Shown here piece by piece: positions 9,044-43,500 of a stretch of 64,000 nucleotides of DNA. The stretch is taken from NCBI GenBank assembly GCA_030390025.1, contig CM059449.1:930001-994000 (forward strand). Direction: 5' to 3'. Position numbers and translations under genes: made by a program. The notes beneath the pieces were generated by a model that did not search any database, had not been told where the DNA came from, and saw nothing but the letters and a program-made list of their open reading frames with translations. Origin of the DNA: Squalus acanthias (taxonomy: Eukaryota). Each line of letters starts with the position of its first letter. Position 1 is the stretch's first letter.

Positions 9044-9600
9044 CTACAAAGATACTTTGTCACCTCTAATGTTTTGGAGAGGACAGATTTTCAGTGGTTC
9101 TGAGTTTTTGCCTCCTTGGTTCAATCCAGGACTGAACAAAGGATACAGATCCCCACTGATACCAGTGACTGTGTGGAGAAGAGACTGACTTTCAGGATTG
9201 TAAAATGACAGTGTTCGTTCCTTACAGTCCAGGTAAACTCCAATCTTCTTTGGTATCTGTCTCAGGATCAGACTGCGGAGGATTACACTTGAACTGACAG
9301 CTTTGTACTCCTCCTCATCTTTCCGCAGCACAGCCCAGCACTCAATGTTGGGGGAAGCATTAGTTGTGTTGTTCTCATCGACGGACTTCTTGGCAATGCC
9401 TATATCCCAGGCAGTCTTCACCCCCACCTCCACCTCCCAGTAATGTTTACCTGATGCAAATGGGGCAGAACCCAGAATGCGTGGATAATGATCAAACCTT
9501 TCCTTGGTGTCATGAGGCGTCTCTCGGTGGGTCACGCGCCTCTTGTCCCCGGACAGGTTTAACTCAGAATGTGCTGTGTTGGAATCCATGGTTACTTCAG
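9044..9600 (-). CDS. Gene A B30.2 (PRY/SPRY) terminal exon, open
   Basis: VTMDSNTAH, ERFD, SGKHYWEVEV, IGVYLDC, LSFY, LYPLFSP motifs; CTTTCATTTAG acceptor, phase 1. Confidence 0.95.
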
Positions 9601-18600: not shown

Positions 18601-21600
18601 CCTTTCCCCTTTCTTGTACTTACAAACAAATCATTTATAATCCACACTTTATCTTCACTGGTGGAATAATGTTTATCCCACTTTCAGAGCTGTCTTTCCT
18701 CTCCACACAATGTTTTGTAATACAAGTCTGTTTCTTTCAGAGGTGCTGTTCACACATTGGTCACAAAAGATAACTGGCAGTTTCTAAACATTAACATCAC
18801 ACTGGTTAGTATCAAAAGATTAATGAGTGGATTTCTTACCTGCAGAGTTTGTAATCCTTTTCCTTCTAGAAATGTAAAATCGAATGGTTATTTTCTGAAC
18901 TGTTATAAACAACACGGACATTCATATTAATTGCACAGTTTTGGGTCATCAGTTCATTAGAATGAGAATTCTGTAAACCATTACTTACTGATGCTCTGAC
19001 GGTTAACTTAATTTCCTTTTTAATTTTACATCTTGTATTTAGAGATCAAGGGCAGAATGTGTCACTTTTGACAAGAACTCAATCTTATTACATTTTTTTA
19101 CTTAACTGTCGTCAATGTGAACAGGATAAACTGTGCAGAGAAATAATCTTGCAACATGAGTAGAAAAATAGAAGCAGCAGTAGGCCATTCGGCCCTTCGA
19201 GCCTGCTCCACCATTCAATATGATCATGGCTGATCCTCCATCTCAATACCATATTCCCGCTCTCTCCCCATACCCATTGATTCCTTTTTTGTCTAGAAAT
19301 CTATCTAGCTCCTTCTTAAATATATTCAGTGACTTGGCCTCCACAGCCTTCTGTGGTAGAGAATTCCACAGGTTCACCACCCTCTGAGTGAAGAAATTTC
19401 TCCTCATCTCAGTTCTAAATGTCCTACCCCGTATTCTGAGACTGTGACCCCTCGTTCGAGACCCCCCAGCCAGGGGAAACATCCTCCCTGCATCCAGTCT
19501 GTCTAGCCCTGTCAGAATTTTATACGTTTCAATGAGATCCCCTCTCATTCTTCTAAACTCTAGTGAATACAGGTCTAGTCGACCCAATCTCTCCTCATAC
19601 AACAGTCCTGCCATCCCAGGAATCAGTCTGGTGAACCTTCACTGCACTCCCTCTATGGCAAGTATATCCTTTCTTAGGTAAGGAGACCAAAACTGCACAC
19701 AGTATTCCAGGTGTGGTCTCACCAAGGCTCTGCATAACTGTAGTAAGGCATCCTTGCTCCTGTACTCAAATCAGGAAACTGGGGGGGTGGGGTGTGTGAA
19801 GCACAAGCACTATTGGTAAATGAGACGGAGAGGGGCGGTAACAGAAAGTTACTGTGGCAGTAGCTAATTATATATAGAGAGATAATAGGGTGGAGACCAT
19901 TAAAAATGAACAAAACAACAGAATATGTCTGTAAATTGAAGGGTGTATAATGGGGTTGCACAGAATGAAGAGAAGTTTAAACACTTATCACAATAACTAG
20001 AGTCAATGATTTATTAAATAACATGCCCAATACCTTATTGAAATGTCCTGTCCCCAGCTGAAATGTAAAAATGTCCAACTATATAAAATATCTTACCTGA
20101 TATTTTAATTTTGTCTTCAGCCCTACAAAAAAGACACAATTTAGAATTACATGTCAAGTGAATAATATTTACTGGCAGTATTTGTTTACCAATGTGGTAT
20201 ATTCTTTTGTGTGGACACTGGAGTCTCTCCATTTCTAGGTCCCTCGATTAATATTATCTGATACAGTCAAAGATTGCGCAGTTCATGTATATTATGAGTG
20301 GTGTAATGTGTATTTTCAGGCACGGACACTGGCCATATGCCTTTTCAAGTGCTGGGTGATGTATTCAAAGAGAAAAGGACAATGCATTTTATCAGAGAAT
20401 TTTCTTGGTTCCATTTTTTTTTAATTGAGAAACCTGTGTGATGGATCAAAGCGCAGCAGTGTGGGACACCAGGAAGGCAGAAACAGTAGAAGAAAATCAG
20501 GAAAAAGTGCTTAAGGGAAACCATGCTGGGGTTTTCAATGCTGGGAGATTCTGGTAAAGAAAAGCATTCACCTGAGGAAGGGGCAATCGATAGCTCCGAA
20601 AGCTTGTGATTTCAAATAAAACTGTTGGACTATAACCTGGTGTTGTGCGACCTCTCAAAGAAAAGTATTACAGAAGTGAGGAGGTCCTGGGAAAGAATGA
20701 GATAATGAGACTGTGCAATGAGTCTTGATTTACAAAGATGCAGGACGAGAAGTAGTGTGTAGGACAGCATGTGTTCATCTAAGGAAGGAATAAAGAAGCT
20801 CAGAGCAGCACAGAACATAGAATTATTGATAAAGGCAAGACACCGAGACCAACACTGTAAACTAGAGAAGAGACAGATTGAATATCAGACTTTTTTACTT
20901 GTACCTTTCCCTGGTGTCAGAAGATCCTACATATAAAAAGATAAGAACATAAGACGTAGGAGCAGGAGTAGGTCATTTGGCCCCTCGAGCCTGCTCCGCC
21001 ATTCAATAAGATCATGGCTGACCCGATCTTGGCCTCAACTCCATTTCCCTGCCCGCTCCCCATAACCCTTGACTCCCTTATCGTTCAAAAATATATCTAT
21101 CTCCACCTTAAATATATTCAATGACGCAGCCTCCACAGCTCTCTGGGGAAGAGAATTCCAAAGATTCACGACTCTCAGAGAAGAAATCCCTCCTCATTTC
21201 CGATTTAAAAGGGTGCCCCTTATTCTGAAATTGTACCCTCTAGTTCTAGATTCCCCCACAAGGGGAAACATCCTCTCTGCATCTACCCTGTCAAGCCCCT
21301 TCAGAATCTTTTATGTTTCAATAAGATCCCCTCTCATTCTTCTAAACTCCAATGAGTATCGGCCCAACCTGCTCAACCTTTCTTCAAAAGATAACCCCTT
21401 CATCTCCGGAATCAACCTCTTGAAACTTCTCTGAACTGCCTCCAATGCAAGTATATCCTTCCTTAAATAAGGAGACCAAAACTGTACACAGTACTCCAGG
21501 TGTGGTCTCACCAATGCCCTGTACAGTTGTAACAGGCCTTCCCTACTTTTATACTCCATTCCCTTTGCAATAAAGGTCAACACTCCATTTGCCTTCCTAA

Positions 21601-24600: not shown

Positions 24601-27600
24601 CACACTTTGAGATGAGGAGAGGAAAAGTATTTGAAAAAAAATTCTACTGAAAGGAAGAAACAGCCCAGGGCCCAGAAACACTGCTGATTACAACTGAAGA
24701 TCAGACACAACAAAATATCAGGCACTAAAGGAAAACCGTGCCTTTGCGGTTTTGAGGTTCTTGCAGATGTTTCGGGTTGAATTGTCTGCGAGGAACACCA
24801 GAATCCACCATGAAAGAATAGAAATTTACTGTGGAATGAAAATTCTCACTGCCTCCTTCCCCTTAAATGTTAAATTTGTAGTAATCAAGGAAGGTGAATC
24901 GCTGAAATCACATTGAGAAATGTCTTTGTAATTCAAAGCTCACAAACCCTGCAATGATTCTCTAAATAAACTTCAGCTTCTAACTCAAAGCCCATTGATC
25001 GGCAGATCTGTGGTAAATGAACGAAGTTGAGGGATGTGAACACAAACAGCAATTTAAAAATACCAGAATTTCATGCAATAAAAACAAAACATGACTGATT
25101 CAAGTCACCAAAAATCTGCCCTAAACCTATAAACTTTAACTAAAGAGAAACACAGATTGTCACAGCAAGGGGTAGTATTTATAGTTTGATGCTGCTGGGC
25201 ATGTTGTTTACAATACACTGCAACTTGGCTGAGCCTTTCATCTTCAAGGTCTACAGTGCTGAACACAGAAGCCTCAGGAGCTACATAGAAAGGTTAAATC
25301 CATGTCTCCATTAATTCCCATAGATCTCAAGTTGCTGACACCAACAGATGTTGGTGTTCTGATTTAGGGTTTATCACCAATGACAGGACAGTGCTCAGAA
25401 CAGCCCTGTTCAAAGCTCCAGGCTCACAAAGTTCAAACCGGTCAAAGCAGAAAATGACACACGGATAAATGAGAATGACTTGTCTGAACATGGTGGGCTG
25501 AATTAGCAGGGCTGGGGGTGTGGGGCCTAGGCTGGAATTTGCTCCCCTAAAGATCTCGAGTCTAATATTAACTGCTGTTCCCATCGTTACACCCCTTACA
25601 GACTGAGGTTACATTTTTTAAATTGTACTCACAGTTTGATACATTATATCCTCATCAGTAAATCCTAGCACACTCTGTATTAAATCTTAACTATTTATAT
25701 TGCACCACAGAAGTGCCAGGCAATGACTATCTCCAACAAGCGAGAGTCTAACCACCACCCCTTGACATTCAATGGCATTACCATCGCCAAATCCCCTGCC
25801 ATCAACATCCTGGGGGTCACCATTGACCAGAAACTGAACTGGACCAGCCACATAAATACTGTGGCAACAAGAGCAGGTCAGAGGCTCGGTATTCTGCAGC
25901 GAGTGTCTCACCTCCTGACTCCCCAAAGTCTTTCTACCATCTACAAGGCAGAAGTAAGGAGTGTGATGGAATACTCTCCACTTGCCTGGATGAGTGCAGC
26001 TCCCACAACACACAAAAAGCTCAACACCATCCAGGACAAAGCAACCCGCTTGATTGGCACCCCATCTACCACCTTAAACATTCACCCCACCACCGGCGTA
26101 CCATGGCTGCAGTGTGTACCATCTACAACATGCACTGCAGCAACTCACCAAGGCTTCTTCAGCAGCACCTCCCAAACCCGCGACCTCTTCCACCTAGAAG
26201 GACAAGGGCAGCAAACGCATGGGAACACCACCACCTCCAAGGTCCCCTACAAGTCACACACCATCCTGACTTAGAAGTATATCGCTGATCCTTTATCGTC
26301 GCTAGGTCAAAATCCTGGAACACCCTACCTAACAGCACTGTGGGAGTAACTTCACCACACGAACTGCAGCAGTTTAAGAAGGTGACTCACCACCACCTTC
26401 TCAAGGGCAATTAGGGATGGGCAATAAATGCTGGCCTTGCCAGCGATGCCCACATCCCATAAATGAATTAAAAAAAATATAAAGAACTTGGATATTGAAT
26501 GCCGAGCAGTTAACATGTTCTTACCTTGGAACAACTTCCTCTTCTTATAGAACAAAATGATAATTGCCATAATGGTGATCAAGGTGATGAGAAGGATGAT
26601 GATGAATGCAATTTGCCAACCTGACAAACTTAGTTCCTTGGGGAACAGTTCACCTGCAAATTAATGCACTGCTGTGTGTAAATATCAAGGCAATACAGAA
26701 AATGTAAGACCGTTGCATTTGGTTTTGTTGCCTACTATTTAACAGGAGATAAGGTAACATTTAAGGTTCATTGACTCATTTTTATCTTCACACAACTACA
26801 TAAAGATATAGAAATAGAACCTGATGCCGCTGCTGTTCTCTCAATTATAACAAATTTAATAGTGACAATTCAGAAGTGTTCTCATGGAAAACACTGTACA
26901 ACACCAACCAATGGCAATAAAGCCCCTTTGTAGTGGCTCACATAGTCCAGCAGATCAACTACAGTCCTGGTCAGCTGGCCACCTGTCCATCGATTTACCC
27001 CGACTTTGGTTCCATTCACAAGTGAAAGCAACACACTGCATTAAATATATTAATCGATGTGTTTAATCTTGTTTGCTGACCTGACATTTGAATCACGGCC
27101 TCTCCCTCAGTTTTCATTCCTTCACTGTGAACAAGACAGGTGTATTTATTTGTGGAATCCTTCGCTATGTCGATGTGACTGAGGACAGTGAAACCTCCCT
27201 TCGGATTCTCAGTTGCCTTAGAGTTGGATGAAGCCCGTTTGTTTGCATCTCCATCTTTCCACGATATTTGAAGGTTGGAGGACGAGCTGTTGGTTTTACA
27301 GAGGAGTTGGATGTTTCTGCCCAGAAACCCGTCCATGCGAATAACAGGTTGGCTGCCAAGGGCTGAAATGTAAATTTTATAATAAGAAAATTTCATTCAA
27401 CAAAATGCCTCTTATGGTAATGATCTCAGGATGCATTTATCCTGCAACTTCTGCCGAAACTAAAACACTATTTTGTAGATGTGTACGCTAGACACTCTCA
27501 TTTTTTTGTGGGGGTGGGGAGGGGAGATGAGGGGAGAATAAATTTTGCACCAGTTAAAAGGAAGGATGTCAACATTAGTTACAGGAACATGTTTTCAAAT

Positions 27601-29625
27601 TTTATCAAATATAGGATCATCTGTGGAGGAAGTTCCCAGCCTCGGACAGCACCATTTCCCACACCAGCCTTCATTTACCCTAATTATTGGCAAATTCAGA
27701 GGACATTTCTGCTGTGAGTCCATACACACGACATAGAACTCTTAGAGTGAGCTGACAAAGAGAAATAGAGAGCTTCATTCATCAGTCTGGATTTCAACCT
27801 GGAGATTAGAGGGAATAAAAGAAGAGACTTGCATACAATACAAAAGCAAAATACTGCGGGTGCTGGAAATCTGAAATAAAAACAGAAAATGCTGGAAATA
27901 CTCAGCAGGTCAGGCAGCATCTATGGAGAGAGAAACAGAGTTAACGTTTCAGGTCAATGATCTTTAGTCAGAACTGGAAAATGTTGGAGATGTAACAGGT
28001 TTTTAAGCAAGTGTAGGGGCAGGGAAAGGGGGAGGGGAGGAAAGAACAAAAGGGAAGGTCTGTGATAGGATGGAAGGCTGGAGAGATTAAAAGACAAAAG
28101 GGATGATGGTGCAAGGCAAAAGGAGATGGTAATGGGACAAGTTAAGAAACAAAAGATGATTCTAGATGAAGTGTAAATGGCAATGGCAGAATCATCAACA
28201 GCTGCCATGTGAGAGAGAAAAAAAATTGGGGCCGAGGTTATGGTCTGAAATTGTTGAACTCGATGTTGAGTCCAGAAGGCTGTAAAGTGCCTAATCGAAA
28301 GATGAGGTGCTGTTCCTCGAGCTTACATTGAGCTTTGTTGGAACAGTGTAAGAGGCCGAGAACGGTGAGGTCAGAGTGGGAGTGAAGCGGGGAATTAAAG
28401 TGACAGGCAACCGGAAGCTCAGGGTCACCCTTACGGACTGAACGGAGGTGTTCCGCAAAGCTGTCGCCCAATCTGCGTTTGGTCTCCCCAATGTAGAGGA
28501 GACCACATCGTGAGCAGCGAATACAGTATACCAAATTGCAGGAAGTACAAGTAAATCACTGTTTCACCTGGAAGTAGTGTTTGGGGCCCTGGACAGTGGG
28601 AAGGGTGGAGGTAAAAGGGCAGGTGCTGCATCTCCTGCGCTTGCACGGGAAAGTGCCGTGCAGAGGGGAGGGGGTGTTAGAGGAGTGGACCAGGGTGTCG
28701 CGGAGGGAGCGGTCCCTTTGGAATGCTGAAAGGGGCGGTGTGGGGGCAATGTGTTTGGTGGTGGGATCACAGACTAGCATACAATGGTCGCTCCAATTTT
28801 TTTTTTTTGAGTGTGCGACCCATTTGAGGGGTTGCGCGGCCCATTCCAATTTCCATGCATGTGCGGTTTTTCCCCATTGTAAAGCTGGCAAGCGGCCTGC
28901 GTGAGATCTCCAGACAGCTACGCAGCTTACAGGAACATTGCTTCCATAAACATAGCCTGTTTCTCAACCTTGGGACATGCCAAAGTGCTTTACCTGGAAG
29001 CCAATGAAATACATTCCAGAATGTCATCACTTTTAATGTAGGAAATGTGGCAGCCAATTTGCACACAGCAAGAGCCCACAAACAACAATGTGATAATGAC
29101 CAGATTATCTGTATTTAGCGATGTTGGTTGAGGAATAAATATTGGCCCCAGGACACTGGGAGAACTCTCCTGCTCTTCGAAGATTGCCATGGCATCTTTT
29201 ATGTCCACCTGAGAGGGCAGATGGGGCGTCGGTTTAACATCTCATGTAAAAGACAACATCTCCGACAGTGCAGTGCTCCCTCAGTACAGCAATGGAGTGC
29301 CAGCCTACATTATGTGCTCAAGTCTCCGGAGTGGGACTTGAACCTTCTGAGTCAGAGGAGAGAGCTCTACCCACTGAGCCACGGCCAACACTGTAATTAC
29401 CTGAATTTTTACATCATTGAGTCGAACTTCTCCAGGTACAAGAAGTGACATCACATAATTATGTCATACAACATGAACAAAGTCAGTGCAGCTACTGTTA
29501 AAGAACAGAACCTGTATAGAATGTCAAAACATAGAAATATTACCGAGAAAGAGAGATTGCTCACCAGATACTGGACCACAAACAAGGAACAGACCGAGAA
29601 GGAGAGTTCCACACTCCATTTTCAT
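9044..29625 (-). CDS. Butyrophilin-like gene A lacking IgV (leader-IgC-TM-micro-exons-B30.2); possibly a pseudogene or alternatively spliced
   Basis: Exons 29565..29625, 27081..27362, 26525..26653, 20905..20926 (tentative), 20097..20122, 18840..18865, 9044..9600, all with AG/GT boundaries. No IgV ORF between leader and IgC. Frame into B30.2 is broken if 18840..18865 is included. Confidence 0.7.
9641..9984. mobile_element. MITE (344 bp) just upstream of the gene A B30.2 acceptor
   Basis: GAGGTGAATTCTCACT / AGTGAAATTTCACCCC ends, CAT/AAT flanks; truncated by deletion in the duplicate. Confidence 0.65.
10657..11817 (+). CDS. Harbinger DDE transposase (HARBI1-family nuclease), 386 aa
   Basis: GAIDCTHV, NRKGFHSLNVQLVCD, GSCHD, LLGDKGY, IERTIGVLKQRFRCL motifs; open frame; TATTTAAA upstream at ~10453. 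Confidence 0.95.
   Translation: MGAAMIGGVVLLQLNRRIQRRRQRVAMMARRRRAIRRMYRRAYPPRVYREQLSYIHMSEELCLRRLRFSKEMVTELCHLLQPDLQPQLRSRTSLSVAVKVTVALNFYATGSFQAAVGDLANISQFAVHRCIRQVTNALFRRRRDFISFPITPDKQRDRALGFARVAGFPMVQGAIDCTHVALRAPRENAEEFRNRKGFHSLNVQLVCDHRQVILAVNAHYPGSCHDAFILRQTTVAEVFKAPHQPVGWLLGDKGYALSTWLMTPLRTPNTPAELRYNESHQATRNIIERTIGVLKQRFRCLDHSGGALQYSPEQVSNFVVVCCMLHNMAILRTQPMPPGLVAPPEEEEEEEEEDEDDDHQQHQGRRAAHNGQTARAVRQRLIASRF
12112..13880 (-). CDS. Harbinger Myb/SANT-like DNA-binding protein, join(13880..13644,13413..13251,13091..12112), 459 aa
   Basis: RFTERALDALVDAV...W.EVA..V...R...QCRKKFNDL and TGGG motifs; GT-AG introns of phase 0 and 1; 1380 nt open; basic C-terminus. Confidence 0.88.
15532..15889 (+). 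mobile_element. Short 3' fragment of the same LINE family
   Basis: Same C-terminal region and tail. Confidence 0.85.
16981..17222 (+). mobile_element. RTE-clade LINE 3' end
   Basis: C-terminal CPTC...SRIG..SHLRTH-like zinc finger, (AAG)n tail, 11-bp TSD AAGATGAAAAG. Confidence 0.8.
18085..18580 (+). mobile_element. CR1 3' fragment
   Basis: C-terminal RT sequence and CR1 hairpin plus ATTCTATG tail. Confidence 0.85.
18840..18865 (-). CDS. Gene A 26-nt pre-B30.2 micro-exon (1 nt shorter than its gene B paralog)
   Basis: TTTTACATTTCTAG acceptor, GCAG|GTAAGA donor; AAGGAAAAGGATTACAAACTCTGCAG aligns to gene B AGTGGAAGGAGATTACGATGTTTGCAG. Confidence 0.72.
19160..19770 (-). mobile_element. CR1 3' fragment
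   Basis: YEERLGRLDLYSLEFRRMRGDLIETYK... Confidence 0.9.
20097..20122 (-). CDS. Gene A 26-nt micro-exon
   Basis: GTCTTTTTTGTAG acceptor, TCAG|GTAAGA donor; positional counterpart of gene B 52514..52540. Confidence 0.7.
20568..20657 (+). mobile_element. Solo ~90-bp PLE terminal fragment with hammerhead (20568..20609)
   Basis: Nearly identical to 54075..54165; stem II has a G-U pair (GGGGC/GCTCC). Confidence 0.8.
20905..20926 (-). CDS. Gene A candidate 22-nt micro-exon
   Basis: CTTTTTATATGTAG acceptor, AAAG|GTACAA donor; 22+26 nt with the next exon preserves phase 1 (GSSDTRERAEDKIKIS). Confidence 0.4.
20940..22975 (-). mobile_element. CR1 RT region, 5'-truncated
   Basis: [32 protein letters not shown]. 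Confidence 0.92.
23818..24100 (+). mobile_element. Old tRNA-derived SINE related to the head, 5'UTR and tail of the 39142..42318 LINE
   Basis: TAGCCTGGTGGTTA...CTCAAATCCC head; GACCATGA, TTCACTGATGTCCTT, ATGTGACTCCAG, ATGTGGTTG body; CAACTAGGGATGGG..CACATCCC tail. Confidence 0.7.
25700..26478 (+). mobile_element. 3' part of the same LINE family
   Basis: RT C-terminal motifs and the same tail. Confidence 0.9.
26525..26653 (-). CDS. Gene A transmembrane exon
   Basis: GELFPKELSLSGWQIAFIIILLITLITIMAIIILFYKKRK; 129 nt, CAAG|GTAAGA donor; paralogous to gene B TM exon (FP...SGW..AF). Confidence 0.92.
27081..27362 (-). CDS. Gene A IgC exon
   Basis: ALGSQPVIRMDG...IQLLC...ISW...KYTCLV; 282 nt, phase 1-1; homologous to gene B IgC. 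Confidence 0.92.
27841..28770 (-). mobile_element. Penelope-like element 3' fragment (GIY-YIG endonuclease plus pLTR with degenerate hammerhead ~27939..27975)
   Basis: VYCIRCSRCGLLYIGETKRRL...EH...HFN...E...GLN motifs; AGTT-CTGACTA...GAAACGTT-AACT. Confidence 0.9.
28970..29392 (-). mobile_element. tRNA-derived Deu-domain SINE
   Basis: TGGCTCAGTGG A box, GGTTCAAGTCCC B box; Deu-like GATGTTAAACCG..GCCCC core. Confidence 0.8.
29565..29625 (-). CDS. Gene A signal-peptide exon (MKMECGTLLLGLFLVCGPVS)
   Basis: TTTGCAG acceptor 4 nt before the ATG, CTG|GTGAGC donor, phase 1, hydrophobic core. Confidence 0.8.
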
Positions 29626-30409
29626 CACTCTGCAAATTCAAAATAAAATGCAATTATTTGAGTGAATTGTCTCAGTACATTCTTCACAAGCTGGATAAAA
29701 TCTGACTGGGAATCCGACTGAAGATTATATGGGATTGCTTGGATGTTAATGTCATTCTAAGGTGTCCAGACTACAGCCCACAAGGCTGCCCACGGCCCAG
29801 GTTCTGGTCCACAATTTCTCAGACATGAACTCACTCTGTTGCTGGGCAACAGGCTGCCGTGTGAAAATGCTGAAGTGAGTGAAGATCCGGACCTGTCGCT
29901 TCCAATGAACCCGGTAAACCCGCTTCCAAAGTTAAATTAAAGAAGCGAGTGGAAGCGGGCGCTTCAGTAAAAGAAGTCCCGTCCCACCGGACTCAGGACA
30001 ACTTGATGTGGAAAGGTTCCTGGGGCCGGGCTCACTTCAGCAGACGGAGCGGCCCCCAAATGTCCCGCAGCATCAAATGTGGGGAAAGGCCGGGGGCGGG
30101 AGCCGAGCTCCGGACTCCGACCTTTGCTCCAATTGACGCCGCGCCCATCCAAAGTACAGCAAAGTGAAAACGCTTTTGTGCATCGAGTTTGAGTCGGGCC
30201 ATTTTGTTGGGCGGAAAGCGGCGGAAAGTTTGGGCGCAGACAGGTTGGTGCCATTTGCTGCTAATGCATTGAGCGAGTGGAATGGGGGGAGAATGGGAGA
30301 GGGGGTGCGGCCCCGGGGAGGAGAGACATGGGCCGGACTGGGCTCCTTCCTCACACCCAGGAGCCGGACTGGAGCAGCTCCAGGCCCGGCCGCACCCTCC
30401 CCGAACCCG

Positions 30410-30683: not shown

Positions 30684-30686
30684 CAA

Positions 30687-31475: not shown

Positions 31476-31533
31476 ATGGAGAATCACTTACTGGCGTCAT
31501 TCCTATTGTTACAGATTCAGATTACAGCAGCAG
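31476..31533 (+). CDS. Gene B signal-peptide exon ([19 protein letters not shown])
   Basis: Hydrophobic core, ends CAG|GTAAGA in phase 1, 91-nt intron to the IgV exon. Confidence 0.85.
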
Positions 31534-34500
31534 GTAAGAGACTGGGTTAAAGGCATGAAGTCTGGATTATCTGTATAATGTGTGCTGTGACAGTATTTAA
31601 ATGCTATTCATTCTTCACTTACAGGAGACTTCGAAGTGACCGGTGCAGACAGCCCAGTACTAGTGACCGTGGGTAGTAGCGTCACGCTGAACTGTCGGGT
31701 CACACCGAGCCTTGACCCTCTGAGTATGGAACTGGAATGGTTAAAAGCAGATACCCGAGAAACTGTCATTTTATTCATAAATGGACGCAGTCGTGCAAAG
31801 TCAAGCAACTACCTTGGAAGGAGTGAGATCTTTAGGGACAAATTGATTCAGGGAAATATCTCGCTCAGTCTAAGCAATGTCCGTATCTCCGATGAGGGTA
31901 AATACAGATGCGTCGTGAGCACCAGTTCCTGGGGACATGCAGGAGATGCAGAACTAACAGTAGCCGGTAGGTATTGATACAGAGAACTGAATCTGTGAAT
32001 ATTGTCACCAAAACATATTCAGAAATTTACATCCCCGTGTAAAATGTCTTTTTAATTAATTTATAAACTTGGAATACCAACATTGATTCTTAACTGTTAT
32101 TGCTGCTTCAGTTTGAGTACATGGAGTTAATGTTCCGTATTGTGATTGGATTGTGGAGGGAATGAAACCGTGCTCGATCCATTCACTCTCATTCTGAACA
32201 ATCAGTCTCGGGAACACTGGGGATCTTCTACATCTCAATCTGTACAGTGCTCACTGTGGGTGTAGATTCACTGTAGAACGTGTCACTGGGACTCTGGACC
32301 AACACTTTATCTCATGGCCTGAGATTCCCTCCTCCTCCTTCCTGGATCACAAGATAATTACAGATGAGGAAGGCCGTTTGGCCCATTTTATTTTAACTAG
32401 AAAGACCCGAACTTCCCCCATTGGGCCTCCAATTGTTTCTTAAACCACTCCAGGGTTTTCTCCTCCAGCACTCTGTCCAGAGTCCATTCCATGTGTTGAT
32501 CACTCTTTGTTTGATGAACTGGCTGTAACAGTCTCACATTTACCTTTTACTAGTTTGAACCTGTGTTCACTTGTCCCACTCTCACAATTTAAAGTAATAT
32601 TTCAGCTTTACCTTTTCCGTTCCTTTAACTACCTATATGTACCCCGAAGCCTCCTTTCCAGGTGCAAATCCCAGGTTTTTCCAGTCTTTTCCCGTCACTC
32701 AGACCCCTGACACTGGGGATGAGTCTGGTGGATCTTCTCCGATCCGCCTCCAGTGTTCAAATATCTCCCTTGTTTCTCAATGGCCAGAACTGGACACAGT
32801 ATTCAAGGTGGGCTCTGACCAGAGCACCGTGCAGTTTGATCGTGGCTTCCTCTGACTTGTAGTCTACTATTTTTAGCCATTTAGTTTGGGAGGCTGGGGG
32901 AGAGAATGTTGCTCATTTTCCCTTATGAGTACTTCAAGAAAATGAACATTCGGAATATTTCCTATTTTGTGCTTGCCCCCAGTTCTGATGCTGTTTGAAT
33001 CATTTATGGTTTACACCGATTCTCTGACATTCCTGTCACTGCTGTAGGACTGATGTTTATTTACTGTAATGTTTCACTTCAGCTGCTGTGCATTTTTCGA
33101 GGCCTCTCCTGGCCCTTCTCATTACCTGCTGAACGTGTTCCTGCACATTCCTATATTCCTCCCAGTGAACCCCTTCTCCTTTCTCCCTGCAGGATTTATA
33201 GCCATTTCTCCTCTTATTTCACTTCAATCTCTTTGTTAATCCATTGAGGGTCCAGTGTGTTTTGCCTGAGCTTCTGATTTCAGATCCTCACCGTGTTGGA
33301 GTCCGAGTCACCCACTGAGTCTGACTGTAACTCATTCTTTCCCAGGACTGCAGAGCTGTAGAACTCCTGGCCTCCCTCAGCTTTCTCCTCCTCCTACAAT
33401 CTACGGCTTTTAAAAACTCAAGTGTGGCCTCCCCTGATCACAGCTTCATGATTTGCATCCTCTCTAGTCTGTTCTATACCGTGGTGGAGGCCTCCTGTCT
33501 GGGCCTTGACCCTTCACACCCATTCGGCAACAATATCAAAATGAGGCCTCACAAAAAAAAACTTCAAATGATCTGGAGAAAGTAGAAAGAGACAAATTCC
33601 AAACATTCACATTCTCCGTTATCTGCTGATGACTCATGGGAGCTGTTTTCCAGCCTAAATATTGGGATTAACCAGGAAACATTGACACTTGTGCATTGAA
33701 CCAGATGTGTAAATATCTTTTTAATACAGGAAAACTGATTTAAAAGAATAGAATAATACAGGACAGAAGGAGGCCCTTCGGCCCATTGTGCCTGTGCCGG
33801 CTCTCTGAAAGTGCTATCCAATTAATCCCACTCCCCTGCTCTTTCCCCATAGCCCTGCAATCTTTTCCTTTTCAAGTATTTATCCAAATCCATTTTGAAA
33901 GTTTCTATTGAATCTGCTTCCACCGCCCTTTCAGGCAGTGCATTCCAGAACATCATAACTCGTTGCGTAAAAACAATTCTCCTCATTTCCCCTCTGTTAT
34001 TTTGCCAATTACCTTTCTATCTGTGTCCTCTGGTTACTGACCCGCCAGCCAGTGCAAACAGTTTCTCCTGATTTACTCTAACAATACCCTTCATAATTTT
34101 AAACTCCTTGATCAAATCTCCCCATAACCTTTTTTGGTCTAAGGAGAACAATCCCAGCTTCTCCAGTCTCTCCACATAACTAAAGTCCCTCATCCCTGGT
34201 GCCATTGTAGGAAATCTCCTCTGCACCCTCTCCAAGGCCTTGACATGTTTCCTAAAGTGTGATGCCCAGAATTGGCCACAATTATCCAGCTGATGCCTAA
34301 CCAGTGTTTTATAAAGGTTTAGCATAGCTTCCTTGGTTTTGTACTCTATGCCTCTAATTATAAAGCCAAGGGTCCCGTATGGTTTTTTAACAGGCTTATC
34401 AGCTTGTCCTGCAACCCTCAAGGATTTGCGTATGTGAACCCCAGGTTTCTCTATTTCGGTACCCCCTTGAAAATTGTACCATTTTTGAAAATTGCCTCAC

Positions 34501-37500
34501 CTCATTCATCCTTCCAGTCACACACATCAGAATCTGAAATATAAAAGTTTGTTAATACGCACAGATTAATGTTTCTGCCAGTGAGCATGAATTTGTAGTT
34601 TATTGTGAAAGTAAATGGATTATTCCACTGAAATAAACATTATTTTCTCTGGTAAACTGTTACATTCCGTTCAATGAAGAGAGGAGTGAATCTGTCTGGA
34701 TCTGGTAGCCTGGTGTTTATGTACTGGTCTGGTAACCAGAGGTTGAGAGTTCAAATCCCCCGCTCCCCACCCTCTCCATGACAGTTTTTGAAATTGAATT
34801 CAATAAATCTATTAATTTGTGGGTCAGGACCAGAAAAAACGTCCCACTGCAATTATCCCAATTTAGATCCAGTACCACATCTGTACCAACTGATGGCAGA
34901 GGTCAAGAACAGCGATCCGTTCTGGAACAAAACCCTATTAAAAATCCTCTCCTGAACCATCCCTTTCAATAATTACACACTGCATGGACCGTATTGATCC
35001 AATAGATGTCTTGGTACAATAAAATAATATGCAGCTTATTTTCCATATTTGTAGTGTCTGGGAGTCAACCTGAGATCCATGTTGAAGGATTCCATGAGCG
35101 AGGGGGGAGTCTTGTGTGTAAATCCAGTGGATGGTACCCGGCCCCTGAGGTATCCTGGAGATACCCAGATGGACCGGACATTTCTGCACCGTCTAAAACC
35201 CTGAATACTGCAGAGTCCAGCGGAGCTGTCACTATCGAAAGTCACATCAACATCACAAAGGATCTTGGGGAAAGCTACTCCTGTCTGATAAGGAACAGAT
35301 TGCTCTTCGAGGAAAGAGAAGGGATTATTGAGATAGCAGGTCAGTGATGAGCCCTCCTCCACAGAGGGTTTATGAAATATTCACATGAACACATTCATCA
35401 GTCTGATTGATTTATTGTTTGACATGTCAATGGTATCTTAGTTCTACAACAAATAAGTTTCTTTGTTTATTTACAGATGAGTTTTTCCCTCAGGAGATGG
35501 GAGTTTCAGGATGGAGTGTGGCTTTCTGGATATTCACGCTTCTCAATGCTATTCTAATAATTGCAACTCTTCTCTACTGGTTAGAACGATGGAACGGTGT
35601 TTTCTATACATGGAAAGAATTGAAAGGTAACATCTAACAAAAAATGTTTAAAATCTTGAGTTGTGTCAACACTGAAATATACAGAAAATCATTTTTTTTA
35701 TAATTGTACAGAAATAAGAGGATCCATAATCTCGCAGTAACAGTGATTTAATATCACTGCGTTCCATTTCACTAAATCACATCACAGTACAAACCATCAC
35801 TTACTGATCCGGGATTGGGAAAGTCTGCATTCGGCTCCAGAACTCTGAATTGCTGTTCCATATTCCAGTGGAGTTTCACAGTCTCTCTGTGCTGGATACC
35901 TCCAGCTCTACCTGCTTCACGCCACCTAACACACAGGAAAAAATCCTTACATGTGAACTTACAACAGGTTACATTTTAGATACACATTTTCCATCATTTT
36001 GAAAAACTGATGCTTGCTGCACTAGAAATGCTACGAACAGAAACAGCCCTGAAATTGCTGTCAGTGACATTAGGAGGAATGGTTAACCGCGTCGTATGTA
36101 ATTCCTTTGTTTGGTATTTCAATTAAATTTAAACATTTATTTAAGACTACTCAGTCTCCCGCGGGCATTCCACATGTGAAGTCAAAACCAAAAGAAATCT
36201 TCAGGTGGAGTGGGATTGGAGTGTGTCGGGGGGGGGGGGCTGGGAGGAGGTCGTGTAGTAAGTAATCAAACCAGGTCTTGTAGATGAATCATAGACTGGT
36301 TACAGCACAGAAGGAGGCCATTCGGCCCGTCAAGCCTGTGCTGGCTCTCTGCAAGAGCACCTCAGCTAGTCCCATTCCCCCGCCCTTTCCTCTGTAGCCC
36401 TGCAATTTTTTTTCCTTCGGGTACTTATCCAACTCCTTTTTGAAAGCCATGATTGAGTCTGCCTCCACCACCCTTTCAGGCAGTGCATTCCTGATCATAA
36501 TCACTCGCTGTGTAAAAAAGGTTTTCCCCTCATGTTGCCTTTGGTTCTTCTGCCAATCAGATTAAAACTGTGCCCTGTGGTTCTCAACCCTTCCATCAGT
36601 GGGAACAGTTTCTCTCTAACTACTCTGTCTAGATCCCTCATGATTTTGAACTCCTCTATCAAATCTCCTCTCCACCTTCTCTGCTCCAAGGAGAACAACC
36701 CCAGCTTCTCTAGTCTATCCACATAACTGAAGTCCCTCATCCCTGGAATCATTCTCGTCAATCTTTTCTACATCCTCTCTAAGGCCTTCACATCTTTCCT
36801 AAAGTGTGGTGCCCAGAATTGCAGACAATACTCCAGTTGAGGCCGAACCAGTGTTTTATCATAACTCCCTTACTTTTTACTCTATACCTCTATTCGTGAA
36901 GCCCAGGATCACGTATGCTTTTTTAAACTGCTTTCTCAATCTGCCCTGCCACCTTTCAACGATTTGTGCACATATAACCCCAGGTGTCTCTGGTCATGCA
37001 CCCCCTTTAGGATTGTACCATTTAGTTTATATTGCCTCTCCTCATTCTTCCTACCAAAACGTATCACTTCGCACTTTGCTGCGTTAAATTTCATCTGCCA
37101 CGTGTCCGTCCATTTCACCAGCCTGTCTATGTCTTCTTGAAGTCTATCAATATCCTCCACTGTTCACTCTACTTCCAAGTTCTGTGTCATCTGCAAATTT
37201 TGAACTTGTGCGCTGTATACCCAAGGCCAAGTCATTAATATATATCAAGAAAAGCAGTGGTCCTAGTACTGACCCCTGGGGAACACCACTGTATACTTTC
37301 CTCCAGTCCGAGAAACAACTGTTCACCACTACCCTCTTTTCTGTCACTTAGCCAATTTCGTATCCATGCAGCCACTGTCCCTTTTATTCCATGGGCTTCA
37401 ACTTTTTTGGCAAGCCTATTATGTGGTACTTTATCAAACGCCTTTTGGAAATCCATGTACACCACGTCAACCGCATTGCCCTCATCAACGCTCTCTGATA

Positions 37501-40500
37501 CCTCATCAAAAAACTCGATCAAGTTAGTTAAAATGATTTGCCTTTAACAAATCCGTGCTGACTTTCCTTAATTAATTAACACTTGTCCAAGACTGTTAAC
37601 TTTGTTCCTGATTATCGTTTCTAAAGGCTTCCCCACTACCGAGGTTAAACTGACTGGCCTGTAGTTGCTGGGTTTTTCCTTGCACCCTTTTTCTGAACAT
37701 GGGTGTAACATTTGCAATTCTGCAGTCCTCTGTCACCACCCCCATATCTGAGGAGGTTCCGAAGATTATGGCCAGTGGCTCCGCGATTTCCTCCTCAACT
37801 TCCCTCAGCAACCTAGGATGCATCCCATCTGATCCTGGTGACTTACCAAGTTTAAGTACAGACAGCCTTTCTAGTACCTCCTCTATCAATTTTTATCTCA
37901 TCCAGTATCTCCACGACCTCCTCTTTCACTATGACTTTGGCAGCATCTTCTTCCTTGGTGAAGACATTTGGAAAATACTTATTTACTACCTCAGCCATGC
38001 CCTCTGCTTCCATGCATAGGTCTCCTTTTTGGTCCCTAATCGGCCCTACCTCTCCACTTACTACCCGTTTATTATTTATATTTCCTCTTATGTTAGCTGC
38101 CAATCTATTCTCATACTCTCTCTTTGCCACTCTTATTTTCTTTTTCACTTCCCCTCTGAACTTTCTATATTCAGCCTGATTCACAATTGTATTCTCAACC
38201 TGACATCTGTCATACGCGCTCTTTTTCTGATTCATCTTACTCTCGCTATCTCTTTCGTCATCCAGGGAAATTCAGCTTTGCAACAGTCGAAGGTGGGATT
38301 TGAACTTGTGGATCATGAATCCATTTCTTGACATTACCAGTAACATAACCACTACACTACCGCACCTGATGCTAAATGAAATCAATCCCTACTGTAACAT
38401 CATACATTCTGTCCTTATTTTTCTACTTCCAATATAAATTCCTACAGTCAACATTTATAATGTCAACTTGCCATGTTGTTCCTCCTCCTCCTGCCAGTGG
38501 ATTTGCTGCAGCGCCTCCACTGGTGGGAGGGTGTAATTACAGCATGACATGTTTACACAGACAGTTTCCAGTCTAAATGTGAATTAGAAATGTACAATGG
38601 ATAAAGCTGGCAGTAAGTGTGTGAATTCCGCATTTTCTTTTAATATTCATTCCATGTTTGCAAGTTGTAACACTTCAACCTCACCCATAACTGTTAGTTA
38701 ATCACCTGAGTTTATAGCGTTCTGACTTAGAGGTGAGAATAATGTATGCTCTAACTGCACTCCAGGATCCAGCATTATATACTGAGTGCTGCATTGTTTG
38801 ATTTGATAAAACATAAAACTGAACCCTCCTCTGCCTTGTCTAGTGGTTCGGAGTGGGGGAGGGGCGGGCGAGGGGGAAGAACATGGTGTTTCTCTTGGGC
38901 TTGGAATTTCCTCCTGATTTGTGCCCAGATACACATAAGAACATAAGAAATAGGATCAAGTGTAGGCCATTCGGCCCCTCGAGCCTGCTCCGCCATTCAA
39001 TAAGATCATGGCTGATCTTCTACCTCAACTCCACTTTCCTGCACTATCCCCATATCCCTTGATTCCCTTAATATCCAAAAAAATCTATCGATCTCTGTCT
39101 TGAATATACTCAATGACTGAGCCTCCACAGCCCTCTGGAGTTTTTTTACATTCGTTTATGGGATGTGGGCGTCGCTGGCAAGGCCAGTATTTATTGCCCA
39201 TCCATAGTTGCCCTTGAGAAGGTGGTGGTGAGCCGCCTTCTTGAACTGCTGCAATCCGTGTGGTGAATGTACTCCCACAGTGCTGTTAGGTAGGGAGTTC
39301 CAGGATTTTGACCCAGCGACGATGGTGTGCGACTTGGAGGGGAACTTGGAGGTGGTGGAGTTCCCATGCACCTGTTGCCCTTGTCCTTCTAGGTAGAAGA
39401 GGTCGCGGGTTTGGGAGGTGCTGCCGAAGAAGCCTTGGCGAGTTGCTGCAATGCATCTTGGAGATGGTACACACTGCAGCCATGGTGCGCCGGTGGTGGA
39501 GGGAGTGAATGTTTAGGGTGGTGGATGTGGTGCCAATCAAATGGGCTGCTTTGTCCCGGATGGTGTCGAGCTTCTTGAGTGTTGTTGTAGCTGCACTCAT
39601 CCAGGCAAGTGGAGAGTATGCCATCACACTCCTGACTTGGGCCTTGTAGATGGTGGAAAGTCTTTGGGGAGTCAGGAGGTGAGACACTCACCGCAGAATA
39701 CCCAGCCTCTGACCTGCTCTTGTTGCCACAGTATTTATGTGGCTGGTCCAGTTAAGTTTCTGGTTAATGGTGACCCCCAGGATGTTGATAGTGGGGGATT
39801 TGGCGATGGTAATGCCATTGAATGTCAAAGGGAGGAGGTTAGACTCTCGCTTGTTGGAGATAGTCATTGCCTGGCACTGCTGTGGCGCGAATGTTACCTG
39901 CCACTTATCAGCCCAAGCCTGAATATTGTCCAGGTCTTGTTGCATGCAGGCATGGACTGCTTCATTATCTGAGGAGTTGTGAATGGAACTGAACACTGCA
40001 ATCATCAGCGAACATCCCCATTTCTGACCTTATGTTGGAGGGAAGGTCATTGATGAAGCAGCTGAAGATGGTTGGGCCTAGGACACTGCCCTGAGGAACT
40101 CCTGCAGCGATGTCCTGGGGCTGTGATGATTGACCTTCAACCACCACAACCATCTTCCTTTGTGCTAGGTATGACTCCAGCCAGTGGAGTGTTTTCCCCT
40201 TGATTCCCATTGACTTCAGTTTTACTAGGGCTCCTTGATGCCAGACTTGGTCAAATGCTGCCTTGATGTCAAGGGCAGTCACTCTTGCCTCACCTCTGGA
40301 ATTCAACTCCTTTGTTCATGTTTGGGCCAAGGCTGTAATGAGGTCGGGAGCCGAGTGGTCTTGGTGGAACCTAAACTGGGCATCAGTGAGCAGGTTATTG
40401 GTGAGTAAGTGCCGCTTGATAGCACTGTCGATGACACCTTCCATCACTTTGCTGATGATTGAGAGTAGACTGATGGTACGGTAATTGGCCAGGTTGGATT

Positions 40501-43500
40501 TGTCCTGCTTTTTGTGGACAGGACACACCTGGGCAGTTTTCCACATTGTCGGATAGATGCCAGTGTTGTAGCTGTACTGGAACAGCTTGGCTAGAGGTGC
40601 AGCTAGTTCTGGAGCACAATAGCCGGGATGTTGTCGGGGCCCATAGCCTTTGCTGTATCCAGTGCGCTCAGCCATTTCTTGATATCACGTGGAGTGAATC
40701 GAATTGGCTGAAGACTGGCTTCTGTGATGGTGTGGACCTCGGGAGTAGGCCGATATGGATCATCCACTCAGCATTTCTGGCTGAAGTTGGTTGCAAATGC
40801 TTCAGCCTTGTCTTTTGCACTCACGTGCTGGGCTCCACCATCATTGAGGTTGGGGATATTCTTGGAGTCTCCTCCTCCCGTTAGTTGTTTAATGGTCCAC
40901 CACCATTCACGACTGGATGTGGCAGGACTGCAGAGCTTTGATCTGATCCGTTGATTGTGGGATCGCTTAGCCCTGTCTATAGTATGCTGCTTCTGCTTTT
41001 TAGCATGCATGTAGTCCTGTGTTGCAGCTTACCACCACATTTTTAGGTACGCCTGGTGCTGCTCCTGGCATGCTCTTCTACACTCCTTGTTGAACCAGGG
41101 TTGGTGGTAATGGTGGAGTGAGGGATTTGCCGGGCCATGAGGTTACAGATTATGGTGGAATACAATTCTGCTGCTGGCCCACAGCGCCTTATGGATGCCC
41201 AGTTTTGAGCTGCTAGATCTGTTCTGAATCTTTCCCATTTAGCACGGTGGTAGTGCCACACAACACGATGGAGGGTGTTCTCAGTGTGAAGACGGGACTT
41301 CATCTCCACAATGACTGTGCGGTGGTCACTGCTGCATCTGTGACAGATAGATTGGTGAGGACCAGGTCAAGTAGGTTTTTCCCTCGTGTTGGTTCTCTCA
41401 CCACCTGTCACAGGCCCAGACTGGTAACTATGTCCTTCAGGTCTCGGCCAGTAGTGGTGCTACCGAGCCACTCTTGGTGATGGACATTGAAGTCCCCCAC
41501 CCAGAGTACATTCTGTGCCCTTGCTACTCTCAGTGCTTCTTCCAAGAGGTGTTCAACATGGAAGAGTACTGATTCATCAGCTGAGGGAGGGCGGTAGGTG
41601 GTAATCAGCAGATTTCCTTGCCCATGCTTGACCTGAAGCCATGAGACTTCATGGGGTCTGGAGTCAATGTTGAGGACTCCCAGGGCCACTCCCTCCCGAC
41701 TGTATACCACTGTGCCACCACCCCTGGTGGGTCTGTCCTGCTGGTGGGACAGGACATACCCAGGGATGGTGATGGAGGAGTTTGGGACATTGGCTGAAAG
41801 GTATGATTGTGTGAGTATGACTATGTCAGGCTGTTGCTTGACAGCTCTCCCAATTTTGGCACAAGTCCCCAGATGTAGGTGAGGAGGACTTTGCAGGGTT
41901 GACTGGGCTGGGTGTGCCGTTACCGTGGCCGAGGTCGATGCTGGGTGGTCCGTCCGGCTTCATTCTTATTATTTTGTTTCGTAGTGGTTAGTTACAACTG
42001 AGTGACTTGCTAGGCCATTTCAGAGGGCAGTTAAGAGTCAACCACATTGCTGAGTCTGGAGTCACATATAGGCCAGACCAGGTAAGGATGGCAGATTTCC
42101 TTCCCTAAAGGACATTGGTGAACCAGATGGGTTTTTACGACAATCCGATCGTTTCATGGTCACCATTACTGATGCTAGCTTTTTATTCCAGATTTATTTA
42201 ACTAACTGAATTTAAATTCCCCAGCTGCCGTGGTGGGATTTGAACTCGCGTCTCTGGATCATTAGTCCAGGCCTCTGGATTACTAGCCTAGTGACATTAC
42301 CACTACGCTACCGTTCCCGAGTAAAGAATTCCAAAGATTCACCGTCCTCTGAGTGAAGAAATTTCTCCTCATCTCAGTCCTAAATGGCTGACCCCTTATT
42401 CTGAGACTGTGACCCCTGGTTCTGGACTCCCCAGCCAGGGGAAACATCCTCCCTGCATCTACCCTGTCAAGCCCTGTAAGAATTTTGTATGTTTCAATGA
42501 AATCACCTCTCATTCTTCTAATCGCTAGAGAATATAGGCCTAGTCTTCTCAATCTGTCCTCATAGGACAATCCCCCCATCTCAGGAATCAGTCTGGTGAA
42601 CCTTCATTGCACTCCCTCTATAGCAAGTATATCCTTTCTTAGGTAAGGAGACCAAAACTGTAGACAATACTCCAGGTGTAGTCTCACCAGGGCCCTATAT
42701 AATTGCAGTAACACGTCTTTACTCTTATACTCAAATCCTCTTGTAATAAAGACCAACATACCATTTGCTTTCCTAATCATTTGCTGTACCTGCATGTTAA
42801 CTTTCAGTGATTTGTGTACAAGGACACCCAGGTCCCTCTGAACAGCAACATTTACTAATCTCTCACCATTTAAAAAATACTCTGCTTTTCTACTTTTCCT
42901 ACCGAAGTGAATAACTTCCCATTTCTCCACATTATATTCTATTTGCCATGTTCTTGCCCACTCACTTAGCTTGTCTATATCCCCTTGAAGCATCTTTGCA
43001 TCCTCCTCACAACTTACTTTCCCACCCAGCTTTGTATCATCAGCAAACTTGGATACATTACATTCGGTCCCCTCATCCAAATCATTGATATAGATTTTGA
43101 ATAGCTGCGGCCCAAGCACTGATCCTTGCGGTACCCCACTAGTTACAGCCTGCAACCTCAAAATGACTTGTTTATTCTTGCTCTTTGTTTTCTGTCCGTT
43201 AACCAATCCTCAGTCCCTGCTAGTGTATTACCCCCAATCCCATGAGCCATAATTTTGTTTAATAACCTCTTGTGTGGCACCTTACCATAAAAAAAGCAAA
43301 CCAAGCACTAGGGTTTATTTCTAGAATTGAAAAGTAGGGAAGTTATGCTAAACCTGTATCGAACCTTGGTTAGACCACACTTGGAGTACTCTGTACAGTT
43401 CTGGTCGCCATATTATAAAAAGGATATAGAGGCACTGGAGAGGGTGCAGAGAAGATTTACAAGGATGATACCAGAAATGCGAGGATATACTTATCAGGAA

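What the first reader, a model, noticed from the sequence alone, without database searches (positions are those of the whole stretch)
26525..29629. IgV-less butyrophilin: leader splices in frame directly to IgC
Seen: the phase-1 leader joins the 282-nt IgC exon in frame. The 2.2-kb intron holds a Penelope fragment, a SINE and short unique DNA, with no IgV ORF or relic that I could recognise. The IgC keeps both Cys and the Trp but replaces the GWYPxP motif (CKTNSSSSNLQISW versus [14 protein letters not shown] in gene B). Established: BTN IgV is the TCR/ligand-binding domain and IgC mediates dimerisation. Inference: either an adaptor or decoy chain that brings a second B30.2, or a copy-specific IgV deletion.
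Basis: partly seen in the sequence, partly recalled or inferred. Interest (0 to 1): 0.75.

Follow-up and report, generated by a model that had tools for sequence, protein, structure and literature searches.

The report
Ancient shark butyrophilin lacking its IgV
Sharks carry an old, still-transcribed butyrophilin subfamily that has lost the IgV domain normally used to contact gamma-delta T-cell receptors; it likely works as the partner chain of the IgV-bearing butyrophilin encoded head-to-head with it, although this particular copy likely makes a tail-truncated protein.

Summary
Observation confirmed, and it is not copy-specific. Gene A splices leader straight to a butyrophilin IgC. No V-set relic lies in the leader-IgC intron of 6 of 6 copies (three are only ~960 nt). 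Annotated orthologues in horn shark and sawshark, on opposite sides of the shark tree, have the same leader-IgC-TM-B30.2 build and also lack GWYPxP. A relative's contig joins leader directly to IgC. The V-less IgC is as conserved to horn shark (81%) as the IgC of canonical neighbour B (81%). Five of six IgC-bearing copies sit head-to-head with a B-type gene whose IgV diversifies. New caveat: in the window copy both 27-nt cytoplasmic mini-exons are 26 nt, so full splicing gives a 175-aa chain ending before B30.2; two paralogues encode intact 360-aa proteins. Best model (about 50%): a natural V-deleted partner chain that pairs with B through IgC and juxtamembrane coil, as engineered V-deleted BTN3A1 does with BTN3A2/A3. 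Complex prediction gave only weak support. I found it in no paper searched; databases call it ERMAP-like. New variant of a known kind.

The parts
29565..29625 (-). Gene A coding part of leader exon (61 nt, phase 1); transcribed exon extends 5' to at least 29799
   Evidence: run X5 contig covers 29565-29799 and continues directly into IgC
27363..29564 (-). Leader-IgC intron, 2202 nt, no IgV exon or relic; holds a SINE-like repeat (~28960-29393) and a GIY-YIG retroelement fragment plus other repeats (~27836-28488) absent from the ~960-nt introns of three paralogues
27081..27362 (-). BTN-type IgC exon lacking GWYPxP
   Evidence: PF22705 E 7e-10; fold matches BTN IgC, TM-score 0.8; motif census
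26525..26653 (-). Transmembrane exon with basic KKRK stop-transfer
   Evidence: IgC-TM joint in contigs of runs X1, X5, X9, X13
20097..20122 (-). Cytoplasmic mini-exon 1, 26 nt here (27 nt in 12 of 14 places examined)
18840..18865 (-). Cytoplasmic mini-exon 2, 26 nt here (27 nt in 9 of 12 places examined; copy A6 has a different 1-nt loss)
9047..9600 (-). A-type B30.2 (PRY/SPRY) last exon, open frame; out of frame if both short mini-exons are included
   Evidence: PF13765 and PF00622 above cut-off
29801..30400 (.). GC/CpG-rich stretch with gene A 5' region, between the divergent start codons (1851 nt apart); candidate shared promoter (inference)
   Evidence: CpG o/e 0.56-0.84; contigs over 29885-30228 in X1 and X5
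31476..55788 (+). Gene B, canonical head-to-head butyrophilin: leader 31476, IgV 31625-31966, IgC ~35055-35339, TM 35477-35626, 27-nt mini-exons 52514-52540 and 53074-53100, B30.2 to 55788
   Evidence: orthologue XP_067865250.1

Best explanation
This is one copy of a shark butyrophilin subfamily whose leader splices directly to IgC, giving a one-Ig chain (IgC-TM-short coil-B30.2) that likely pairs with the IgV-bearing butyrophilin encoded head-to-head, and this copy likely ends before its B30.2. Shown: exon structure, no IgV in 6 of 6 copies, orthologues in both shark superorders, spliced junctions in relatives, head-to-head layout, intact 360-aa frames in two paralogues, frameshifted mini-exons here. 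Inferred: IgV was lost once before the galeomorph-squalomorph split; the GWYPxP loop then decayed because it no longer had a V domain to pack against; the A chain dimerises with a B-type chain through IgC and the juxtamembrane coil (A basic, B near neutral), needs that partner to leave the ER, and contributes a distinct B30.2 while the diversifying B IgV contacts the receptor (a gamma-delta TCR by analogy). The window copy is either a decaying duplicate or a BTN3A2-like tail-less variant.
For: Orthologues XP_067865452.1 (horn shark, 347 aa) and UPI00398E39AF (sawshark, 366 aa) are leader-IgC-TM-PRY/SPRY with no V-set; Galeomorphii and Squalomorphii. A-type IgC clade 100/100 and A-type B30.2 clade SH-aLRT 100. 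X5 contig: leader = record 169-403, IgC = 404-687 (again on paralogue A4 with 2 differences); TM-to-second-mini-exon joints in X5 and X9 carry an intact first mini-exon. Identity to horn shark: A IgC 73/90, B IgC 76/94. 5 of 6 IgC-bearing A copies face a B gene; 8 of 19 B copies face an A leader. Horn-shark A and B orthologues both lie on a record of 74,466,956 bases. A and B share two 27-nt mini-exons. B IgV dN/dS 1.19-2.07 in 6 of 6 pairs, A IgC 0.19-0.68 in 5 computable pairs of 6 (small counts). A-IgC + B-IgC complex: weak support, 0.35 against best control 0.00, runs agree in at least 90% of contacts, partner pLDDT 72; the mark was reached by 51 of 78 solved and 2 of 108 mismatched pairs, but passes at 0.60 or under are more often wrong than right, and solved BTN IgC dimers exist so it may be likeness only. 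Human precedent: BTN3A1-3A2 pairing needs IgC (PMC5798315 passages); V-deleted BTN3A1 reaches the surface and stimulates only with BTN3A2/A3 (PMC10665462 section 6 and passages).
Against: No experiment shows binding; the prediction is weak and cannot say which family member binds. Only 2 of 6 IgC-bearing copies were shown fully intact; intact A4 faces a B copy with a TGA in its IgC, and 11 of 19 B copies have no A leader in the 10 kb fetched upstream, so the pair is not kept one-to-one. A-type proteins were found in only 2 named species although the hits include proteins of many other annotated sharks and rays, so the gene may be dispensable or unannotated elsewhere. dN/dS rests on 2-7 changes per pair. 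The runs are only guessed to be RNA and are of relatives; no run held half of the window's words, so the window copy's own transcription is unshown. Whether the horn-shark genes are adjacent was not seen.
Confidence: 0.5

Rival explanations
1. The A chain acts without B: a homodimeric or monomeric membrane anchor whose IgC is a spacer or a ligand-binding domain in its own right, presenting a specialised B30.2 sensor at the ER, endosome or surface.
For: A-type B30.2 forms its own long-stemmed clade; pairs are not kept one-to-one; butyrophilins persist in squamates that lack gamma-delta T cells, suggesting other roles (PMC12841164).
Against: Head-to-head layout in 5 of 6 copies; strongly basic juxtamembrane segment in horn shark (11 K/R, 2 D/E) and sawshark (7, 2) against 6, 5 in horn-shark B, the kind of charge reported to steer BTN3A1 to heteromers (PMC10665462 passage); V-deleted human BTN3A chains do not traffic alone.
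Confidence: 0.22
2. A pairs with B but as a brake: it dilutes B homodimers to one IgV per dimer and lowers receptor avidity, the tail-less window copy being the extreme form.
For: V-deleted BTN3A2 plus BTN3A1 stimulated worse than BTN3A1 alone (PMC10665462); same pairing evidence as the main model.
Against: A pure brake would not need a B30.2 kept 68-76% identical across the shark tree.
Confidence: 0.17
3. The IgV-less genes are non-functional relics carried along by duplication of the A-B unit.
For: Many decayed copies: frameshifted mini-exons in A1/A2, leader deletion in A6, a mutated acceptor in A3, 13 N-terminal and 10 C-terminal split B30.2 halves. This may well be true of the window copy itself.
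Against: Open, collinear frames in horn shark, sawshark, A4 and A5; IgC conservation equal to gene B's; spliced contigs in four organisms.
Confidence: 0.08
4. An IgV exon was dropped by a collapsed assembly.
For: The region is a large segmental-duplication cluster.
Against: No N; five collinear introns; two other species' models and a contig junction lack IgV.
Confidence: 0.01

Closest known systems
Canonical butyrophilins BTN/BTNL (BTNL3 and BTNL8, PDB 22kk; BTN3A1, BTN2A1)
   Same: BTN IgC, TM, short heptad mini-exons, PRY/SPRY; best PDB matches of the horn-shark orthologue are BTNL3/BTNL8 from residue 131 onward; known to work as heteromers.
   Different: No IgV at all in the gene; GWYPxP loop replaced; human pairs keep IgV on both chains.
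Engineered V-domain-deleted BTN3A1 (Karunakaran et al. 2023, PMC10665462)
   Same: Leader-IgC-TM-JM-B30.2 build; basic juxtamembrane region; works only with a V-bearing partner.
   Different: The shark chain is natural, old and separately encoded; the residue I recall as BTN3A1 His381 is Asp here, so phosphoantigen sensing is not implied.
ERMAP (database label of both orthologues), MOG and chicken BG
   Same: Single-Ig butyrophilin relatives.
   Different: Their single Ig is the V domain (BG: PMC8813856 passage; human ERMAP and MOG recalled); here it is the C domain. A-type does not group with the marsupial ERMAP row in either tree.
BTN3A2
   Same: B30.2-less partner chain, the likely product type of the window copy.
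   Different: BTN3A2 keeps IgV.
PD-L1 exon-3-skipped isoform (PMC10178889, abstract start only)
   Same: B7-family chain lacking IgV.
   Different: A splice isoform that loses membrane location and expression, not a dedicated conserved gene.

Membership tests
Butyrophilin (canonical IgV-IgC-TM-heptad-B30.2) | N-terminal IgV domain | tested here: not met
   No V-set signal in 6 of 6 introns or in 2 of 2 orthologues
Butyrophilin (canonical IgV-IgC-TM-heptad-B30.2) | BTN-type IgC domain | tested here: met
   PF22705 above cut-off; top Foldseek hits are BTN IgC
Butyrophilin (canonical IgV-IgC-TM-heptad-B30.2) | GW[YF]PxP loop in IgC | tested here: not met
   W, P, P present in 43 of 43 rows of my selected non-A alignment, absent in all A-type rows
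Butyrophilin (canonical IgV-IgC-TM-heptad-B30.2) | Single TM followed by short heptad exons | tested here: met
   TM exon and two 27-nt exons in A4/A5; 26 nt each in the window copy
Butyrophilin (canonical IgV-IgC-TM-heptad-B30.2) | Cytoplasmic B30.2 in frame | tested here: inconclusive
   In frame in A4, A5 and both orthologues; in the window copy only if both mini-exons are skipped
Butyrophilin (canonical IgV-IgC-TM-heptad-B30.2) | IgC-dependent heteromer formation | tested here: inconclusive
   Weak support 0.35 vs 0.00 control; may reflect solved BTN dimers
Butyrophilin (canonical IgV-IgC-TM-heptad-B30.2) | Regulation of gamma-delta T cells | not testable with these tools
   Needs cell assays
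ERMAP | IgV ectodomain | tested here: not met
ERMAP | Orthology to mammalian ERMAP | tested here: not met
   Does not group with the one marsupial ERMAP row (P0114) in IgC or B30.2 trees; deep forks poorly resolved
BTN3A1-type phosphoantigen sensor | Basic B30.2 pocket with His381 | tested here: inconclusive
   Asp at the position I recall as His381 in all five A-type rows; the equivalence is recalled, no alignment to BTN3A1 was displayed
Pseudogene | Disrupted frame and no conserved intact orthologue | tested here: inconclusive
   Window copy has two 1-nt losses; subfamily has intact members

The most novel reading that the evidence does not exclude
Sharks hard-wired the butyrophilin division of labour into two facing genes: a near-invariant, V-less chain that supplies pairing, trafficking and its own B30.2 sensor, and a multi-copy chain whose IgV diversifies to engage lymphocyte receptors. 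That would be the natural counterpart of the engineered V-deleted BTN3A1 and a ready candidate for the unknown gamma-delta TCR ligand system of the oldest jawed vertebrates.
Probability: 0.3. Interest if true: 0.78.

Novelty: new variant of a known kind. Interest (0 to 1): 0.58.

Why it matters
Butyrophilin heteromers select and activate gamma-delta T cells in mammals, and the IgV is the TCR-binding part; all natural one-Ig relatives I know keep V and drop C. A C-only chain kept across the deepest shark split shows that a butyrophilin has a selected function without IgV. It gives a natural test of what IgC, juxtamembrane coil and B30.2 do on their own, and names a concrete gene pair to test against shark gamma-delta TCRs, for which the searches found no described ligand. 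It also corrects a database label (ERMAP-like).

Tried and rejected
No RNA holder is listed on record for the window; the laid runs are guessed RNA. Run X14 had no cover over the IgC. Single-sequence fold of the horn-shark protein failed (pLDDT 41) and was not used. Homologue search at 51-163 aa found no candidate. Three look-ups of earlier findings returned nothing. Gene A' as a control: rejected, it is an orphan split B30.2. One origin for all leader-IgC butyrophilin models: rejected; the Callorhinchus model XP_042200830.1 groups with an IgV-bearing Callorhinchus BTN (100/98) and the sturgeon model XP_058873096.1 nests among IgV-bearing rows. Placing the window's species by these genes: rejected, IgC groups with horn shark and B30.2 with sawshark. 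A direct test that the GWYPxP loop touches IgV was not possible; the antibody elbow paper's passages named only the VH residues, so the analogy to the CH1 Phe-Pro ball is recalled. The first B30.2 tree had two rows out of frame and was replaced. The A3 frame check mis-anchored and is void; for A3 I rely on exon-level results. Cross-species dN/dS was not possible without orthologous DNA.

Full report
OBSERVATION. The window is G000:C26:930001-994000, in a cluster with 48 butyrophilin-IgC matches among 105 candidates. Gene A lies on the minus strand: leader 29625-29565, 2202-nt intron, IgC 27362-27081, TM 26653-26525, B30.2 exon from 9600. Leader and IgC join in frame through GT/AG sites. The Ig exon is a BTN IgC by Pfam (PF22705, 39.2 bits, cut-off 27) and by fold (pLDDT 90.6 from a 49-row alignment; 9 of the top 10 Foldseek rows are butyrophilin entries). 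The window has no N.

NO IgV RELIC. tblastn with gene B's IgV gave nothing better than E 8.5 in the intron. A profile of 95 IgV domains scored at most -0.4 bits in the leader-IgC introns of 6 of 6 copies; gene B's IgV scored 110, controls decayed by 20% scored 10-49 (3 of 3) and by 30% scored 7 and 17 (2 of 3; one missed). A relic decayed beyond about 30% could be missed, but three copies have introns of 955-965 nt, about 460 nt of which is a SINE-like repeat. The extra 1.2 kb in the window copy, including the GIY-YIG fragment (E 0.007), is absent from those three.

NOT COPY-SPECIFIC. Six IgC exons in the genome are 92-100% identical to this one; I call them A1 (window) to A6. A search among longer proteins returned 2 hits of 36 candidates: horn shark XP_067865452.1 and a sawshark UniRef entry, both labelled ERMAP-like, both leader-IgC-TM-PRY/SPRY without V-set. 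They belong to Galeomorphii and Squalomorphii. A-type IgC domains form one clade (100/100, 67 rows, 93 columns) and so do their B30.2 domains (SH-aLRT 100). The simplest reading is one IgV loss before these groups split (inference). All A-type rows lack GWYPxP, whose W, P and P are present in 43 of 43 rows of my non-A alignment (Y/F in 32 of 43); I left the two other leader-IgC models out of that alignment. I recall the equivalent loop in antibody CH1 forming the V-C elbow joint, which would explain its decay once V is gone; not tested.

TRANSCRIBED IN RELATIVES. No listed run is on record as RNA or holds half the stretch; the runs laid are contigs guessed to be RNA, from related organisms. 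In X5 a 778-nt contig (depth 246) maps leader exon to record 169-403 and IgC to 404-687 with nothing between; it has 7 differences from A1 and 2 from paralogue A4 over the IgC. The IgC-TM joint is in 4 of 4 runs (four organisms, four studies). X9's 1138-nt contig has only 95 nt before IgC. On A4, joints in X5 and X9 bridge TM to the second mini-exon with letters that read as an intact first mini-exon. X11 covers IgC and TM; X14 does not cover IgC. Exon-to-exon joins argue these are spliced RNA.

UNDER CONSTRAINT. Against horn shark, A1 IgC is 73/90 identical, TM 33/42, B30.2 117/171; gene B against its orthologue XP_067865250.1 is IgV 75/112, IgC 76/94, B30.2 125/173. The V-less IgC is thus as conserved as a canonical one. 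Among paralogues, uncorrected dN/dS is 0.19-0.68 for A IgC (5 computable pairs of 6; few changes) and 1.19-2.07 for B IgV (6 of 6 pairs among 4 copies).

THE WINDOW COPY IS DAMAGED. Intact copies have two 27-nt cytoplasmic exons. In A1 and its duplicate A2 both are 26 nt: 2 of 14 places for the first exon, 2 of 12 for that loss in the second. Including both gives 175 aa, stopping at the start of the last exon; either alone gives 168 aa; skipping both gives 342 aa with B30.2. The stop lies in the last exon, so such a message would likely escape nonsense-mediated decay (inference). Sharing by two separately placed copies suggests the losses are real, but no same-species reads were available. A4 and A5 have canonical splice sites throughout and encode 360 aa. 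A3 has a mutated first mini-exon acceptor; A6 has a 15-nt leader deletion and a different 1-nt loss.

CONTEXT. Gene B starts 1851 nt from gene A on the other strand and is intact, with the same two 27-nt exons. Five of six IgC-bearing A copies face a B gene. Of 19 B-type IgV copies, all examined upstream, 8 face an A leader, 3 of these without a full A IgC. Horn-shark A and B are both on a 74,466,956-base record; adjacency not seen. The juxtamembrane stretch is basic in A (horn shark 11 K/R to 2 D/E, sawshark 7 to 2) and balanced in horn-shark B (6 to 5).

MECHANISM. In humans BTN3A1-3A2 association and surface expression need IgC (PMC5798315, passages); BTNL3/8 likely form a V-shaped IgC dimer in which only BTNL3's IgV binds the TCR (PMC6868513, passages); V-deleted BTN3A1 is retained alone, rescued by BTN3A2/A3, and that pair stimulates better than wild type, whereas V-deleted 3A2 plus 3A1 stimulates worse (PMC10665462, section 6 and passages). 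I commit to A as a natural V-deleted partner of B (0.5). Prediction for the two IgC domains gave weak support: 0.35 against 0.00 for the best of 3 controls, partner pLDDT 72, runs agreeing in at least 90% of contacts; the mark was reached by 51 of 78 solved and 2 of 108 mismatched pairs, passes at or under 0.60 are more often wrong than right, and solved BTN dimers could explain it. Against: intact A4 faces a B copy with a stop in IgC; most B copies have no A beside them; A-type proteins turned up in only two named species while the same search listed proteins from many other sharks and rays. Rivals: stand-alone B30.2 anchor (0.22), brake (0.17), relic (0.08), assembly collapse (0.01).

COMPARISON AND NOVELTY. 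It works like a butyrophilin heteromer subunit but fails canonical membership on IgV and on the GWYPxP loop; it is not ERMAP. Six searches of the held library listed no paper on an IgV-less butyrophilin gene; for most hits I saw only the listing and start of abstract. The 2026 survey of jawed-vertebrate butyrophilins (PMC12841164, parts 1-3 of 4 read) covers four cartilaginous fish and mentions none; I did not open its supplement, which could bear on this. PMC8968916 and PMC8813856 were seen as passages. Subscription papers are not searched. Automatic gene models exist, so the sequences are public but, as far as I found, unremarked. Verdict: real, conserved, new variant of a known kind; window copy probably truncated; interest 0.58.

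Noticed in passing
window 62352-63609 (-): Gene A' is an A-type B30.2 exon split by a ~670-nt insertion, with mini-exon remnants but no A-type IgC in the 60 kb upstream; the genome search lists 13 N-terminal and 10 C-terminal halves of this kind.
   Followed up: partly
window 31625-31966 and L035, L040, L050: B-type IgV exons differ at 12-32 non-synonymous sites per pair with dN/dS above 1, while their IgC barely varies: a diversifying ligand-binding domain in 19 copies.
   Followed up: partly
window 55246-55788: Gene B's B30.2 groups with shark TRIM B30.2 domains (SH-aLRT 99), not with A-type or several other shark BTN B30.2s, hinting at exon exchange with neighbouring TRIM genes.
   Followed up: partly
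P0046/P0207 (Callorhinchus XP_042200830.1) and P0060 (Acipenser XP_058873096.1): Other leader-IgC butyrophilin models of separate origin; the chimaera one is V-less in two annotations and has an altered loop (GWSSQP). Gene or isoform not checked.
   Followed up: partly
window 10122-14952: Insertion in gene A's last intron, absent from duplicate A2, with an open 433-aa frame (10516-11814) that resembles a Harbinger-type transposase (recalled) and a second frame on the other strand.
   Followed up: no
window 30410-30690; L034-L035: A ~36-nt tandem repeat between the two start codons, short here but expanded to several kb in the A3 unit, spreading the genes from 1.9 to about 15 kb apart.
   Followed up: no
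L062, L070, L083: A-type leaders facing B genes whose IgC (and in L062 TM) is missing or cut while mini-exons and B30.2 remain; could splice leader to cytoplasmic exons.
   Followed up: no
G000:C26: The contig holds most of 149 B30.2 matches and several IgV-bearing BTN subfamilies at 1.5-7.6 Mb; the five distal loci with both exons in view have IgV upstream of IgC and keep W[YF]PxP.
   Followed up: partly
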